Of a stretch of 64,000 nucleotides of DNA, positions 60,001-64,000 are shown one piece after another (within the stretch, counting starts at the first letter, position 1; every line of letters begins with the position of its first letter). The position numbers were made by a program. The DNA is from Bacteroidota bacterium. Lineage in GTDB: Bacteria > Bacteroidota > Bacteroidia > AKYH767-A > 2013-40CM-41-45. The stretch spans positions 3,496-67,495 of the forward strand of contig JADJFC010000009.1 in NCBI GenBank assembly GCA_016708785.1, in the 5' to 3' direction.

Positions 60001-63000
60001 GGTTCACCCCGAATTAAAAGCACAAGCACTCGAAATGTGTCAGCTACTTGTGCAGGCAAATTCGAATGAACCTCGTGCTCATGCTGTATATGGTGATTTT
60101 CTTATTAAGGATGGGAAAAACGAAGAAGCAAAAGCAGAATATTTGAAAGCAAAAGATCTTGGCTCAAAAGAATTTGCAATTTACAGTCAGCTCATGTTTT
60201 TAAATGCACAGCTGCAGGATTGGAAATCTCTCGCATCTGAAAGCGAAGAAGCAATGAATCTTTTCCCTGAACAATCACTGCCATATTTCTTTAATGGAAT
60301 GGCGCAGATTCAGAATAAGAAATATACTGAAGCCATTTCAGTGCTTAATACCGGAGTAAAATTAGTAGTCGATAACAAAGCTCTCGAAGGACAATTCTAT
60401 GCAAGTCTGGGCGATGCCTACAATGAAATCCGTGATTACGTAAAAAGTGATGAGAGTTTTGATCAGGCATTGCTTATCAATCCGAAAGATGCTAACGTAA
60501 TGAACAATTACGCATATTACTTATCTGTGCGAAATGAAAAGCTTGATAAAGCAGAGGCGCTTTCAAAAGAATCGAATGAACTGGAGCCAAAGCAAGCTTC
60601 TTATCAGGATACCTACGGATGGATTATGTACAAGCAAGGAAAATACTCCGATGCTAAATTGTGGATAGAAAAATCGCTTTCAAATGGTAGTGATAGCAGT
60701 GCAACTGTATTAGAACATTATGGCGACGTAGTCTATCATTTGGGAGATAATGCAAAGGCATTAGAGTACTGGCAAAAAGCAAAAGCTGCCGGCGAAGGCG
60801 CATCAGAATTTTTGGATCGTAAGATTCTTGAAAAACGTTTGTTCGAATAAAATGAATCGTCAAAAGAACTTTTTCGTTTTTCGTTTTCTTTCCCGCAGAT
60901 TTGAATACGCAGAATATCCGCAGAGTTTTTTTTCTTTTTTCTTTTTTCTTTTTTCTTTTTTTTGTTGCATGTAAGACTTCAAAAAAAGTCGTTGAGTCTC
61001 CATCTGCATCGACAAAACTAAAAGGAGAAGAAGTTATTCAGGCCTTCGACAGCGTGCTTGCGCATCAGTTTCAATATAAATACTTAACAGCGAAAGCAAG
61101 CGTCGATTATACAGACAGAACCGGCGATACAAAGAATTTCGATATTAATTTGCGGATGAAACGTGATAGTGCTGTGTGGATTTCTATCACGCCGCTTTTA
61201 GGAATTGAAGCTGCGCGATTAATGGTTACAACTGACAGTGTATTCATGTTAGATCGTGTACATAAAACCGTTTTACGTCGCGATATAAATTACTTCGGAG
61301 AAATGTTGCGTACCAATGTCAACTTCGACATGTTGCAATCGGTCATCATCGGAAATTATTTTCAGTATCTGGAAAAAGAAAAACTGAAATCGATCTATGA
61401 AGAAGAACCGTATATAATTCTTAGCTCACTGAATAAGCGGCAGGTAAAAAGAGCATTGGAAGAAAAAGATCCAACAAAACCTGTTATCCAGGATTTTTGG
61501 ATTGATGGCAATTATCGAATAGCTAAATCAAAGATCACTGACGACAAACTAGATCGTTTTGTTGAAGCAACGTATAAAGAATTCATTGATGTAAGTGGCT
61601 CTCTTTTCCCAAGCAATCTCGTCCTGACCATTTCCGGAATAACACCAACTATTATGAAGATCAATTATTCGAAAGTCACTCAGGTGGACTCGTTGCAGTT
61701 GCCATTTACGGTGCCGGAAAAGTATGAGGCTAGGTAGGATTATGAATGGGTCAAAGGTCAAGGGTCAAAGGTAATAGCTATACTAAAACTCCCATACACC
61801 AACCATTCCAGATTTGTAATCCAGAACCCCCATGCTTCGGATTTTTAATCCAATAACACCTAACTTTTCTTACATTTATGATTCATTTCATTACTTTCAA
61901 TTTCTATTAAAAGTGTTCAAAAAAAACAACATATTCAAATCAATTCTGTACCGATGTTATTCTTCATCGATCACAATTTGTGTTGCTTATTATCTGACAG
62001 GAAATTTTAAAGCTGCGTTTTCGATTGGGTTTCTTGATTCTATGTTCAAGATCTTTTCTTATTACTTCTTTGATTCAGTATGGCATCGTATCGTTGGATT
62101 TAAAGCCAGACCGGCTGTCATATGGCTTACAGGATTATCGGGTTCCGGTAAGACAACCATTGCAAACAATTTGATGGATAAATTCAAAAGTAAATCTGTC
62201 GTTCCAGTGATGCTCGATGGTGATGAGATCCGACATGCAATTCGACAAACCGGCTTTGATATGGAATCAAGAAAGAAGCACAATCGAAATGTTGGTTTCA
62301 TTGCTTCGCTCTTTGAAAAACAAGGTAACATTGTCATAGTAGCACTCATTTCTCCATACGAAGATGTCCGTAATGAAATACGATCCATGTGTACTAACTT
62401 CATTGAAGTGCATGTTGCAACAGAACTAAATGTATGTATCGAAAGAGATGTAAAAGGACTTTACAAAAGAGCGCTTACCGGCGAGATCACTAACTTCACA
62501 GGAATTTCCGACAAATATGATTCACCCTCAAAACCTGAAGTGGTGATCGATACAGCTCAGATGTCAACTGAAGAATGCGCAATGAAAGTTTTCAATTATT
62601 ATCGACGTAGAAAATTTTGATTTTTTAACACTAAGATCACTAAAATTTAGCCACGAATTCACGAATAAAAATAATTCATTCGTGAATTCGTGGCTAAATT
62701 TTAATGATCTTAGTGTTTCTCATTTTACCACGAATTCACGAATAAAAAATAATTCATTCGTGGATTCGTGACAAAAATCTTAGCGGCTCTCTATTTTTTC
62801 TCCGTGCCACGAATTCACGAATAAAAAAATACTTCATTCGTGAATTCGTGACAAAAATCTTAGCGGCTCTCTATTTTTTCTCCGTGCCACGAATTCACGA
62901 ATAAAAAAATAATTCATTCGTGAATTCGTGGTAAAAATCTTAGGCTCTCTCTTTTTCTCCGTGCCACGAATTCACGAATAAAAAATACTTCATTCGTGGA

Positions 63001-64000
63001 TTCGTGGCAAAATCTTAGCGGCTCTCTATTTTTTCTCCGTGCCACGAATTCACGAATAAAAAAATACTTCATTCGTGAATTCGTGACAAAAATCTTAGCG
63101 GCTCTCTATTTTTTCTCTGTGCCACGAATTCACGAATAAAAAAATACTTCATTCGTGGATTCGTGGCTAAAATCTTAGTGGTCTTTGTGGGTCTCTATTT
63201 TTTCTTCGTGCACTTCGTGTTTAAAATTTTAAGTGTTATTGTATTCAGAACAACACCTGGCATTTGAGGCACAAACTGATTTTACTTGAAATTCAGACAA
63301 ACTTTTACCAAAAATCTGCGTTATAAAAGCCTTATCTTTATTGGAAATCAATGCATTCGGGTTCTGTATATTCGCTCAATTTTAGTCAAAGCAGCTTAAA
63401 AGCGCATTTAATGTGCTTTTTTTCAGTGCTTTGTGCGGTTATGCTTATTGCCGGAAGTTCTTACGGTCAATCGAAAAAAGAGCTTGAAAAAAAGAAGAAT
63501 GCTATCCAGAAGGATATTGAATACACCAATCAGCTTTTAAAACAGACAAAGAAAAACAAATCTGCTTCACTGAATCAGTTGGTGACATTGAATAAAAAAT
63601 TACGTACCGGTCTGAGCTTATCTCAACGATCAATACAGAGATCAATTCAGTGGACAATGAAATTGGCGCAGTGAGTACCAATATCGATTCATTGAATTCA
63701 AGTTTGTCTAAGCTTAAGAAGCAATACGGGCAAATGCTTTATTTCGCATATCGAAATCAAAGTACCTATTCAAAGCTAATGTTCGTTTTTTCTGCTGAGA
63801 GTTTTAATCAGGGGTTCAAGCGTATGCAGTATTTACGACAATTAAGTCAGTACCGAGAGAGACAACGTGATAAGATCGTGGAAACGCAGGATTCGCTCAA
63901 TGGCAAGAAGACGAAACTTCAAGTTGTAAAAGCCGATAAAAAGCAATTGCTCACTTCTCAACAACGCGAAAAGCAACAACTTGATAAGGAGAAAAAGAGC

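What the first reader, a model, noticed from the sequence alone, without database searches (positions are those of the whole stretch)
62642..63215. Seven tandem ~78-bp hairpin units between cysC and envC
Each unit has a perfect 15-bp inverted repeat (CACGAATTCACGAAT / ATTCGTGAATTCGTG) with an A-rich loop, then ACAAAAATCTTAGCGGCTCTCTATTTTTTCTCCGTG. Entire units are repeated, so this is not a repeat-spacer array. The arm motif resembles the TCGAATTACGAAT motif upstream of genes at 53.7 and 56.15 kb. The array could be multiple transcription terminators, small-RNA units, or binding sites for a regulator.
Basis: seen in the sequence. Interest (0 to 1): 0.55.

Follow-up and report, generated by a model that had tools for sequence, protein, structure and literature searches.

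The report
Tandemly amplified REP-like hairpin repeat
The seven hairpin units are real: they are a local, copy-number-variable tandem amplification of a palindromic repeat whose 17-base arms recur downstream of genes across many Bacteroidota genomes, which is a new variant of a familiar kind of bacterial repeat and not a new system.

Summary
Observation confirmed. Window 62627-63218 holds seven head-to-tail units of 77-80 bp, starting 6 nt after the stop codon of an APS-kinase gene and ending about 130 nt before an M23-peptidase (envC-like) gene. Each unit carries a CACGAATTCACGAAT / ATTCGTGAATTCGTG hairpin. Four are perfect and three have one G.T mismatch.

The array appears at the same locus in 13 other metagenome assemblies of this species, with 3, 4 or at least 4 units. 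It is absent from the same intergenic region in the closest relatives. The unit junction was found at no other locus.

The hairpin core (GC + CACGAAT-T-CACGAAT) is dispersed. At least 115 loci carry it, almost all in Bacteroidota and mostly Flavobacterium, with several copies per genome. It sits about 50 nt after stop codons: convergent 37, co-directional 47, divergent 1.

There is no T tract after the stem, no orientation bias, no Rfam match, no copies in phages or plasmids, and no Y1 transposase nearby.

Best reading: a REP-like extragenic palindrome reiterated with its flank into a minisatellite. It probably acts, if at all, as a 3'-UTR stem-loop barrier. The function is inferred, not shown. 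Interest is moderate to low.

The parts
61832..62620 (+). Upstream gene: adenylylsulfate (APS) kinase with an N-terminal DUF2061 membrane domain (cysC-like). Its stop codon TGA is at 62618-62620.
   Evidence: Pfam APS_kinase E = 2.5e-51 and DUF2061 E = 1.1e-12. The identical protein is found on contigs from 36 blocks of the assembly collection.
62627..62717 (.). Unit 1 is a long nested palindrome. The outer arms are AACACTAAGATCACTAAAATTTAG / CTAAATTTTAATGATCTTAGTGTT. The inner core hairpin has its left arm at 62652-62666 and right arm at 62678-62692, and is perfect.
   Evidence: 43-nt arms, 95% complementary, 5 nt apart (I1). MFE -56 kcal/mol for 62615-62730. The same composite, outer arms included, occurs at a different locus in a related MAG (L033).
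62727..62805 (+). Unit 2 (79 bp): hairpin 62729-62743 / 62756-62770 with one G.T mismatch, followed by the tail ACAAAAATCTTAGCGGCTCTCTATTTTTTCTCCGT.
62806..62885 (+). Unit 3 (80 bp): perfect hairpin 62808-62822 / 62836-62850, plus the tail.
   Evidence: It differs from unit 6 at 1 position.
62886..62962 (+). Unit 4 (77 bp): perfect hairpin 62888-62902 / 62916-62930. The tail carries indels (TCTTAGGCTCTCTCTTTTTCTCCGT).
62963..63040 (+). Unit 5 (78 bp): hairpin 62965-62979 / 62992-63006 with one G.T mismatch, plus the tail.
63041..63120 (+). Unit 6 (80 bp): perfect hairpin 63043-63057 / 63071-63085, plus the tail.
   Evidence: Units 2-4 and 5-7 form a 235-bp higher-order repeat (D1, 97% over 170 nt).
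63121..63218 (+). Unit 7 is the distal edge of the array: hairpin 63123-63137 / 63151-63165 with one G.T mismatch, then a diverged tail GGCTAAAATCTTAGTGGTCTTTGTGGGTCTCTATTTTTTCTTCGTGCACTTCGTG that ends in a CTTCGTG word pair.
   Evidence: The same distal edge is present in L116, L117, L122 and L134-L136.
63351..64000 (+). Downstream gene: M23 peptidase (envC-like). It is split in the window by a 1-nt homopolymer deletion near 63593-63598 and runs off the end of the window.
   Evidence: The intact 419-aa orthologue in L116 carries PF01551 Peptidase_M23. The window has A6 where L116, L117, L122 and L135 have A7.

Best explanation
The array is a locus-specific minisatellite. A REP-like extragenic palindrome sits directly behind the stop codon of the APS-kinase gene. 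That palindrome, together with about 35 bp of its 3' flank, was duplicated head to tail and then expanded and homogenised, reaching 7 copies in this assembly and 3 to at least 4 in others. I infer the mechanism was slipped-strand replication or unequal recombination, including a duplication of a 3-unit block.

The palindrome core has 17-bp arms (GC + CACGAAT-T-CACGAAT) and an AT-rich loop of 12-13 nt. It belongs to a dispersed family of 'word-built' palindromes that lie downstream of genes in many Bacteroidota.

Likely mode of action (inferred, not shown): the region is transcribed as the 3' UTR of cysC, and each unit folds into a 17-21-bp stem-loop. Like REP elements, these stem-loops would impede 3'-to-5' exonucleases and/or RNA polymerase read-through into envC. 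They lack the U tract of a canonical intrinsic terminator. The stem of unit 1 begins only 6 nt after the stop codon, so it could also interfere with translation termination. The number of copies is probably neutral or only quantitatively relevant.
For: Anatomy:
- Seven head-to-tail units of 77-80 bp. The central units differ from each other by 1-5 positions, and the edge units are diverged.
- A 235-bp higher-order period is present.

The array is real and variable:
- It sits at the same locus in independent assemblies that encode the identical APS kinase or contain the unit junction. Copy numbers are 3 (L117, L122, L135), 4 (L116) or at least 3-4 where the contig ends inside the array (L118, L123, L124, L136).

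The array is recent and local:
- The closest relative with the same cysC-envC synteny (89% identical kinase) has a 130-bp intergenic region with no hairpin. Relatives at 76% identity also lack it.
- The unit junction CTCYGTGCCACGAATTCACGAAT occurs in only 3 metagenome contigs, all from this same locus.

The core is dispersed:
Nearly all are Bacteroidota: Flavobacterium, Aequorivita, Chryseobacterium, Sphingobacterium, Ravibacter and Bacteroidales.
- One genome, F. aquidurense, has at least 10 loci.
- The flanking G and C are 92-99% invariant.

Placement at gene 3' ends:
- Contexts are convergent 37, co-directional 47, divergent 1, inside an ORF 2. The median distance from the nearest stop codon is about 30-50 nt.
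- Divergent contexts are depleted, p = 5e-5 to 4e-7. Convergent contexts are enriched, p = 1e-7.

Other support:
- The window has other long word-built hairpins directly after stop codons.
- Tandem clusters of the same family occur elsewhere: L058 with 4 hairpins and L086 with 3.
- Within the array the arms vary less than the rest: 2 of 30 arm positions against about 16 of 50 other positions. Both arm changes keep G.U pairing on the + strand.
Against: - No transcript data exist, so the RNA-level role rests on position alone.
- The family shows no orientation relative to the upstream gene. Loop A/T bias is 25 against 38 (p = 0.13) and the T-tract test gives p = 0.5.
- In a general set of long hairpins from these loci, G.U-type mismatches are equally frequent on the sense and antisense strands, 15 against 17. 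This gives no sign of selection on one RNA strand.
- Loops are found inverted between orthologous loci, which points to DNA-level dynamics.
- The array is missing in the nearest relative, so whatever it does is dispensable.
- The copy numbers of 3-4 come from short-read assemblies that may collapse repeats. The count of 7 rests on this one assembly, which shows homopolymer errors.
Confidence: 0.55

Rival explanations
1. This is a purely DNA-level selfish or neutral palindrome. The hairpin family spreads or is maintained by DNA processes such as hairpin-templated repair, gene conversion between arms, or an unidentified mobilising enzyme. It persists downstream of genes only because insertions there are harmless. 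On this view the array is a neutral minisatellite with no RNA or regulatory role.
For: - There is no strand or orientation asymmetry.
- Loop inversion occurs between orthologous loci: L003 vs L106 and L010 vs L045.
- The array is absent in the closest relatives and its copy number varies.
- A composite element with the same outer arms sits at a non-orthologous locus in a related MAG.
- Similar composite flanks occur at two loci of one genome, L084 and L090.
Against: - No transposase was found. No Y1 transposase appears in 1.05 Mb around the hairpins, nor between paired hairpins.
- No target-site duplication is visible.
- There are no copies on phages, plasmids or viral contigs.
- Identical 17-nt arms across several families of Bacteroidota, combined with unrelated loops, need a sequence-specific maintaining force. 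This set was ascertained on perfect arms, however, so that point is weak.
Confidence: 0.28
2. This is a double-stranded DNA binding platform. Each unit offers four CACGAAT heptamers, two direct and two inverted, giving 28 in the array. A dimeric DNA-binding protein would recognise them, such as a nucleoid-associated protein, gyrase as at BIME-2, or a centromere/iteron-type protein as at F-plasmid sopC.
For: - The heptamer word is the conserved unit, while the joint base varies: CACGAAT-N-CACGAAT with T, A, C and G all seen.
- The arm spacing in the family is bimodal, 12-14 and 23-25 nt, a difference of about one helical turn.
- The lack of orientation is what a DNA site would show.
- Direct, non-inverted runs of the same word also exist (L115).
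Against: - No conserved partner gene lies next to the array or next to family members.
- The neighbouring genes are chromosomal housekeeping genes.
- The array is absent in the closest relative.
- No parS-like site is present.
- The strong bias to gene 3' ends is not expected for a generic DNA-binding site.
Confidence: 0.1
3. This is a series of canonical Rho-independent terminators.
For: The stems are strong and lie directly downstream of a gene. The family sits after stop codons.
Against: - No T tract follows any stem on the + strand. Only unit 1 on the - strand passes a lenient scan.
- The family consensus after the stem is A-rich and then mixed A/T. T-tract presence does not follow gene orientation.
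Confidence: 0.04
4. This is an array of functional small RNAs: a type III antitoxin-like repeat RNA, guide-RNA arrays (CRISPR or TIGR type), or template RNAs of a reverse-transcriptase system.
For: The units are tandem and structured. Arrays of structured ncRNA units are known in Bacteroides prophages (bioRxiv 10.64898/2026.09.22.753630).
Against: - No variable segment exists between units.
- The neighbours are APS kinase, M23 peptidase and TatA. No toxin, cas, tas or reverse-transcriptase gene is present.
- Relatives with the same synteny lack the array.
- There is no Rfam match above threshold.
Confidence: 0.02
5. This is an assembly artefact.
For: - The window shows homopolymer indels typical of long-read assemblies.
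- Many short-read contigs end in or at the array.
Against: At least 2 to 4 tandem units are assembled independently in 11 other assemblies from different samples, and a twelfth (L120) reaches only unit 1. They share the same two edges.
Confidence: 0.01

Closest known systems
REP elements and their tandem clusters (REP/BIME; GTAG- and CGTC-tagged palindromic repeats, Di Nocera et al. 2013, PMC3733652)
   Same: - Short extragenic palindromes, dispersed in several copies per genome.
- Lie between co-directional and convergent genes, downstream of coding regions.
- Lack a terminator T tract.
- Clusters arise by tandem reiteration of an element together with a piece of flanking DNA.
   Different: - There is no unpaired GTAG or CGTC tag. 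The arms are closed by a paired GC followed by A/T runs.
- Stems are 17 bp or longer and loops 9-25 nt, against 8-9-bp stems and 4-5-nt loops for CGTC REPs.
- The arms are built from a tandem heptamer word.
- Copy number appears to be tens per genome, not hundreds.
- No RAYT was found.
- The units in the array are all in the same orientation, not alternating as in E. coli BIME-2 (own knowledge).
- The same arm sequence is shared across several bacterial families.
Bacterial minisatellites / VNTR loci
   Same: Head-to-tail units of 77-80 bp in an intergenic region. Central units are homogenised and edge units diverged. Copy number differs between assemblies of one species.
   Different: Each unit is dominated by a strong hairpin that belongs to a dispersed repeat family. 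The copy-number differences are not yet confirmed with spanning reads.
BrickBuilt minisatellite-in-MITE of Porphyromonas gingivalis (Klein et al. 2015, PMC4596501)
   Same: A Bacteroidota intergenic element that combines a tandem repeat lacking spacers with inverted-repeat ends.
   Different: - BrickBuilt has a 23-nt unit.
- It is present 19 times per genome as a whole MITE.
- It carries promoter activity.
- Here the 80-bp unit occurs at one locus only, and only the hairpin core is dispersed.
Rho-independent terminators
   Same: A stable stem-loop shortly after a stop codon.
   Different: No U tract and no orientation with respect to the gene.
F-plasmid sopC-type centromere (12 tandem 43-bp units, each with a 7-bp inverted repeat; own knowledge)
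   Same: Tandem units that each contain a short inverted repeat.
   Different: The locus is chromosomal and among housekeeping genes. No partition genes lie nearby. The array is absent in relatives. The hairpin is a dispersed 3'-end element.

Membership tests
REP (repetitive extragenic palindrome), broad sense | A short palindrome able to form a stem-loop | tested here: met
   15-17-bp arms in all 7 units. Fold z-scores are -15 and -22.
REP (repetitive extragenic palindrome), broad sense | Extragenic location, preferentially between co-directional or convergent genes | tested here: met
   Contexts: convergent 37, co-directional 47, divergent 1, inside an ORF 2. Depletion of divergent contexts has p <= 5e-5.
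REP (repetitive extragenic palindrome), broad sense | Many dispersed copies within one genome | tested here: inconclusive
   F. aquidurense DSM 18293 has at least 10 loci. For the window's own organism only this locus is seen in 64 kb. The related MAG VAR_18 has at least 2 loci, L033 and L086. No whole-genome census was possible.
GTAG- / CGTC-tagged REP superfamilies | An unpaired GTAG or CGTC tag at one end of the stem | tested here: not met
   The positions flanking the arms are a paired G-C (92-99%) followed by A/T runs. No tag is present.
GTAG- / CGTC-tagged REP superfamilies | Association with a RAYT (Y1 transposase), for the GTAG type | tested here: inconclusive
   tblastn with IS200 TnpA, ISHp608 TnpA and E. 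coli RAYT found no hit at E <= 0.1 in 1.05 Mb of the window plus loci. The query sequences were recalled from memory. The genes between paired hairpins are TA-like or membrane proteins. Whole genomes were not searched.
BIME-2-type REP cluster | REPs in alternating orientation within the cluster | tested here: not met
   All units are head to tail, with the same loop orientation and the same tail.
Rho-independent terminator | A T/U tract within a few nt after the stem on the transcribed strand | tested here: not met
   No + strand unit passes the scan. The family consensus shows no T tract and no orientation.
CRISPR or other repeat-spacer arrays | Unique spacers between the repeats | tested here: not met
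   The inter-hairpin segments are themselves repeated, with 1-5 differences between central units. No cas genes appear in the annotated orthologous contig.
MITE | Terminal inverted repeats, a target-site duplication, and dispersal of the whole element | tested here: inconclusive
   Unit 1 has the ends AACACTAAG...CTTAGTGTT, and a similar composite occurs at another locus in a related MAG. No target-site duplication is visible. The 80-bp array unit is not dispersed.
Minisatellite / VNTR | Head-to-tail units of 10-100 bp with copy-number polymorphism within a species | tested here: met
   Period 80 x 6.7. Other assemblies of the same locus have 3, 4 or at least 4 units. Caveat: short-read assemblies may collapse repeats.
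Type III toxin-antitoxin (ToxIN-like) | A repeat array immediately upstream of an endoribonuclease toxin gene | tested here: not met
   The downstream gene is an M23 peptidase followed by TatA.
Partition centromere (parS / sopC-like) | A parS consensus sequence or adjacent partition genes | tested here: not met
   No parS-like site at up to 3 mismatches in the window. No parA or parB gene is near the array.
Any Rfam RNA family | A score at or above the family's gathering threshold | tested here: not met
   Only sub-threshold matches to generic miRNA hairpin models, e.g. 42.6 bits against a threshold of 90.

The most novel reading that the evidence does not exclude
The 17-nt arm GCCACGAAT-N-CACGAAT, together with sister 'words' such as GTTTCAG, CTAAGA and CGCAAAG that build nested palindromes behind genes, could be the recognition vocabulary of a machinery specific to Bacteroidota and not yet identified. 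That machinery could be an RNA- or DNA-binding protein, or a mobilising or templating enzyme independent of RAYT, that creates and maintains these palindromes across the phylum. The seven-unit array would then be a high-density site for that factor. The helical-turn spacing classes of the arms and the loop inversions would be its footprints.
Probability: 0.15. Interest if true: 0.6.

Novelty: new variant of a known kind. Interest (0 to 1): 0.33.

Why it matters
For this locus, little changes. The array is a hypervariable, dispensable repeat between two housekeeping genes. It is useful mainly as a strain marker and as a known breakpoint for short-read assemblers.

The wider point is more interesting. 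An identical 17-base palindrome arm recurs behind genes in Flavobacterium, Aequorivita, Chryseobacterium, Sphingobacterium, Ravibacter and uncultured Bacteroidota. It is absent from Rfam and was not found in the searchable literature. It is one of a class of hairpins whose arms are tandem 7-8-nt words.

Bacteroidota gene 3' ends are poorly characterised. If these palindromes shape transcript ends or mRNA stability, or are bound by a dedicated factor, they would be a phylum-specific counterpart of the REP elements of Proteobacteria. That can be tested directly in the genetically tractable Flavobacterium johnsoniae.

Tried and rejected
- Rfam scan of 60000-64000 at E <= 10 gave only sub-threshold miRNA-hairpin models.
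- Sigma-70 promoter and terminator scan: the repeated promoter-like hits are an effect of the repeat and use an E. coli-type consensus that does not apply to Bacteroidota. By eye I found no full match to the Bacteroidota -7 motif TAnnTTTG in either strand of the unit. The consensus is from my own knowledge. No + strand terminator was found.
- Coding potential: unit lengths of 77-80 nt are not multiples of 3 and vary by indels. The 47-52-aa ORFs inside the array cannot encode a consistent repeat peptide.
- The core hairpin pattern gave 0 hits in 2.9 million viral contigs. A separate blastn of window 62621-62900 found no match in plasmids or phages.
- Full-text literature search for the 15-mers returned 0 papers. 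Searches for shorter pieces returned only unrelated primer hits. Searches combining REP with Bacteroidetes and Flavobacterium found only taxonomy and rep-PCR papers.
- Test for an RNA-strand signature: the array's own arm variants are G.U-compatible on the + strand. However, the few imperfect family members give mixed results, and the general hairpin set gives 15 against 17. I therefore do not count this as evidence.
- A parS search found nothing.
- A Y1 transposase search found nothing.
- The link to the 53.7 and 56.15 kb motif is rejected.
- Type III TA, TIGR, UG27-RT and CRISPR readings are rejected on gene context and on the lack of variable segments.
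Full report
**1. The observation**

The sequence is as described, with corrections. Tandem Repeats Finder reports an array at 62650-63178: period 80, 6.7 copies, 89% matches, score 802. It also reports a higher-order period of 235 bp, which is 3 units, at 2.2 copies.

The arm CACGAATTCACGAAT occurs 14 times at 0-1 mismatch as seven inverted pairs, all between 62652 and 63165. At up to 3 mismatches the whole 64-kb window holds 19 hits against 2.9 expected, and none of 100 shuffles reached 19. Four hairpins are perfect. Units 2, 5 and 7 carry ATTCGTGGATTCGTG, one G.T mismatch.

Unit 1 differs from the rest. It is a 91-nt nested palindrome with 43-nt arms, 95% complementary, at 62627-62717. 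It begins 6 nt after the TGA of the upstream gene.

Units are 77-80 bp long. Central units 2, 3, 5 and 6 differ from each other at 1-5 positions, and units 3 and 6 differ at only one. Edge units 1 and 7 are diverged. This pattern is typical of an array homogenised by unequal exchange. A 3-unit block duplication is visible (D1: 97% over 170 nt).

The upstream ORF is an APS kinase with a DUF2061 domain. The downstream gene is an M23 peptidase.

**2. Not an artefact, but the copy number is soft**

The identical kinase protein is encoded on contigs from 36 blocks of the assembly collection. Most of those contigs are shorter than 2 kb, and many end in or at the array.

Every contig that reaches the region carries the array with the same proximal and distal edges:
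- 3 hairpins in L117, L122 and L135.
- 4 hairpins in L116.
- At least 3-4 hairpins, with the contig ending inside the array, in L118, L123, L124 and L136.

Short-read assemblers can collapse 80-bp repeats, so 3-4 may be underestimates. The count of 7 comes from this assembly alone. This assembly has a homopolymer deletion in envC (A6 where the other assemblies have A7) and so looks like long-read data.

**3. Local and recent**

The closest relative with the same gene order is the MAG GCA_031411835.1, whose kinase is 89% identical. It has a 130-bp cysC-envC spacer with no hairpin. Relatives at 76% identity lack the array too.

The unit junction CTCYGTGCCACGAATTCACGAAT occurs in only three metagenome contigs, and all three are this same locus. 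The 80-bp unit is therefore not a dispersed element. The array grew in place.

**4. The hairpin core is a dispersed family**

Nearly all are Bacteroidota:
- many Flavobacterium species;
- Aequorivita, Chryseobacterium, Sphingobacterium and Ravibacter;
- Bacteroidales and unclassified Bacteroidota MAGs.

One genome, F. aquidurense DSM 18293, contributes at least 10 loci. The two bases outside each arm are almost invariant: G at 92% and C at 99% on the left, G at 99% and C at 92% on the right. The conserved arm is therefore GCCACGAATTCACGAAT.

Loops are AT-rich and unrelated in sequence. Their lengths cluster at 12-14 and at 23-25 nt (the search stopped at 25). The base joining the two heptamers varies in relaxed copies, as in CACGAAT-A/C/G-CACGAAT.

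Many copies are nested inside outer arms made of other tandem words, such as CTAAGA, CGCAAAG and GCAGAT runs. Unit 1 of the window is built the same way. A composite with the same outer arms as unit 1 lies at a non-orthologous locus in the related MAG (L033).

Tandem clusters of the family also occur elsewhere. L058 has four hairpins and L086 has three, both at a period of about 60.

**5. Where the family sits**

Using ORFs of at least 120 aa, the contexts are:

| Context | Copies |
|---|---|
| Convergent | 37 |
| Co-directional | 47 |
| Divergent | 1 |
| Inside an ORF | 2 |

The nearest stop codon is typically about 30-50 nt away. Against the intergenic regions of the same loci, divergent contexts are depleted (p = 5e-5 by number, 4e-7 by length). 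Convergent contexts are enriched (p = 1e-7).

The window itself has other long hairpins made of tandem 7-8-nt words directly after stop codons: 36937-37025, 42915-43003, 44972-45053, 55077-55140 and 38437-38555. None is followed by a T tract.

In the other genomes, 10 of 50 unrelated long perfect hairpins have arms periodic at 7-8 nt, against 2 of 250 shuffled arms. The array's hairpin is thus one member of a general class.

**6. Tests of function**

- Canonical terminator: not supported. No + strand unit has a T tract after the stem. The family consensus after the stem is A-rich and then mixed A/T. Neither T-tract presence nor loop composition follows the orientation of the upstream gene (p = 0.5 and 0.13).
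- Known RNA family: none.
- Coding: no. Unit lengths are not multiples of three and vary by indels.
- Mobile-element carriage: the core pattern is absent from viral contigs, and blastn of window 62621-62900 found no match in phage or plasmid records.
- Transposase: none detected near the hairpins.
- RNA-strand signature: within the array the arms are less variable than the rest (2 of 30 positions against about 16 of 50), and both arm changes preserve G.U pairing on the + strand. However, imperfect family members give mixed results. In the general hairpin set, sense and antisense G.U-type mismatches are equal at 15 and 17. I therefore do not claim an RNA signature.
- DNA-level dynamics: these are visible. 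Orthologous hairpins in different Flavobacterium species have the same arms and flanks but an inverted loop (L003 vs L106, L010 vs L045).

**7. What it most likely is and does**

Shown by the evidence: this is a locus-specific, copy-number-variable tandem amplification of a REP-like palindrome plus about 35 bp of its flank. The palindrome belongs to a dispersed family that sits at gene 3' ends in Bacteroidota.

Inferred:
- The array arose by slippage or unequal exchange.
- It is transcribed as the cysC 3' UTR.
- The stem-loops act as REP-like barriers to exonucleases and/or to read-through into envC.
- Unit 1's stem starts 6 nt after the stop codon, so it could disturb translation termination, as reported for E. 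coli REPs close to stop codons (own knowledge).

The main rival is that the family is a purely DNA-level selfish or neutral palindrome that is merely tolerated behind genes. The symmetry results and the loop inversions favour that rival. The strict 3'-end placement fits both readings.

A double-stranded DNA protein-binding array remains possible. Points in its favour are heptamer words as the conserved unit, spacing classes about one helical turn apart, and direct word runs in L115. It has no partner gene, however, and it is not conserved at this locus.

**8. Comparison with known systems**

The closest known kind is REP elements and their clusters. [quoted passage not shown]

This family fails the tag criterion of the GTAG and CGTC superfamilies. 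Its stems and loops are much longer than those of CGTC REPs. Its arms are built from words, no RAYT was detected, and the array is head to tail rather than alternating as in BIME-2 (own knowledge). I therefore say it works like a REP cluster but is not a member of the described REP superfamilies.

It also qualifies as a minisatellite. It differs from the P. gingivalis BrickBuilt minisatellite-MITE, which has a 23-nt unit, 19 whole copies per genome and promoter activity (PMC4596501).

**9. Novelty and score**

The array itself is an ordinary kind of object and is dispensable at this locus. The undescribed part is the phylum-wide palindrome arm and the word-built hairpin class. I rate the finding a new variant of a known kind, with interest about 0.33.

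**10. Limits**

- The family set was ascertained on perfect arms, so arm conservation cannot be measured from it.
- Only 8-kb pieces around the hits were available, not whole genomes.
- Gene contexts rest on simple ORF calls.
- No expression data were available.

Noticed in passing
window 63593-63598 (envC-like gene); also 59202-60850: The M23-peptidase gene is split by a 1-nt homopolymer deletion: the window has A6 where four other assemblies of the same locus have A7. The TPR gene at 59202-59660 / 59564-60850 is one 578-aa gene in L116. The many short or overlapping ORFs in the window are probably long-read homopolymer errors and not pseudogenes.
   Followed up: partly
window 36937-37025, 38437-38555, 42915-43003, 44972-45053, 55077-55140: Long hairpins with 20-35-bp stems whose arms are tandem 7-8-nt words: (GTTTCAG)n, (GGTGAGT)n, CACACT/AGTTTG words and (GGGTCAA)n. 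Each lies directly after a stop codon and none has a T tract. In other Bacteroidota loci, 10 of 50 unrelated long perfect hairpins show the same 7-8-nt periodicity, against 2 of 250 shuffled arms.
   Followed up: partly
window 53718-53768 and 56148-56186: A shared motif, CTAACGCTTCGA followed by TCGAATTACGA-type direct words, occurs exactly twice (expected 0.17). Each copy lies about 45-55 nt upstream of a start codon, at 53775 and 56197. It may be a common 5' regulatory element. It is unrelated to the hairpin array.
   Followed up: partly
L003 7915-7960 vs L106 320-365; L010 3113-3155 vs L045 5683-5725: Orthologous hairpins in different Flavobacterium species have identical arms and flanks, but the loop is reverse-complemented. 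This indicates spacer inversion by recombination or template switching between the arms.
   Followed up: no
L001-L115 (hairpin family): The distance between arms is bimodal, 12-14 nt (60 copies) and 23-25 nt (30 copies), with few in between. The two classes differ by about one helical turn.
   Followed up: no
L009 2270-3188; L011 2916-3687: Pairs of family hairpins about 730-880 bp apart bracket small cassette-like genes. In L009 they bracket an antitoxin plus a RelE/ParE-like toxin pair. In L011 they bracket a DUF433-like 76-aa protein. These identifications are by eye from the translations.
   Followed up: no
window 53470-53690: A cluster of small GC-rich hairpins surrounds a 27-nt x 2.1 direct repeat. 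The hairpins are GTGGCTGAAGCCAC, CCGTCAGCTAAAGCTGACGG (twice, with the loop inverted) and GTGGCTTTAGCCAC. GGCTTTAGCC-type hairpins also recur in the Flavobacterium loci.
   Followed up: no
L115 5880-6100: In Flavobacterium artemisiae the same GCCACGAAT word runs occur in direct orientation at a period of about 70 nt, not inverted. They alternate with AATCTGCG / AATCTGTG word runs. This shows the words are reusable building blocks.
   Followed up: no
window 60926-60963: A perfect (TTTTTTC) x 4.9 run lies at the 5' end of the DUF4292 ORF, 60901-61737. It was not examined.
   Followed up: no
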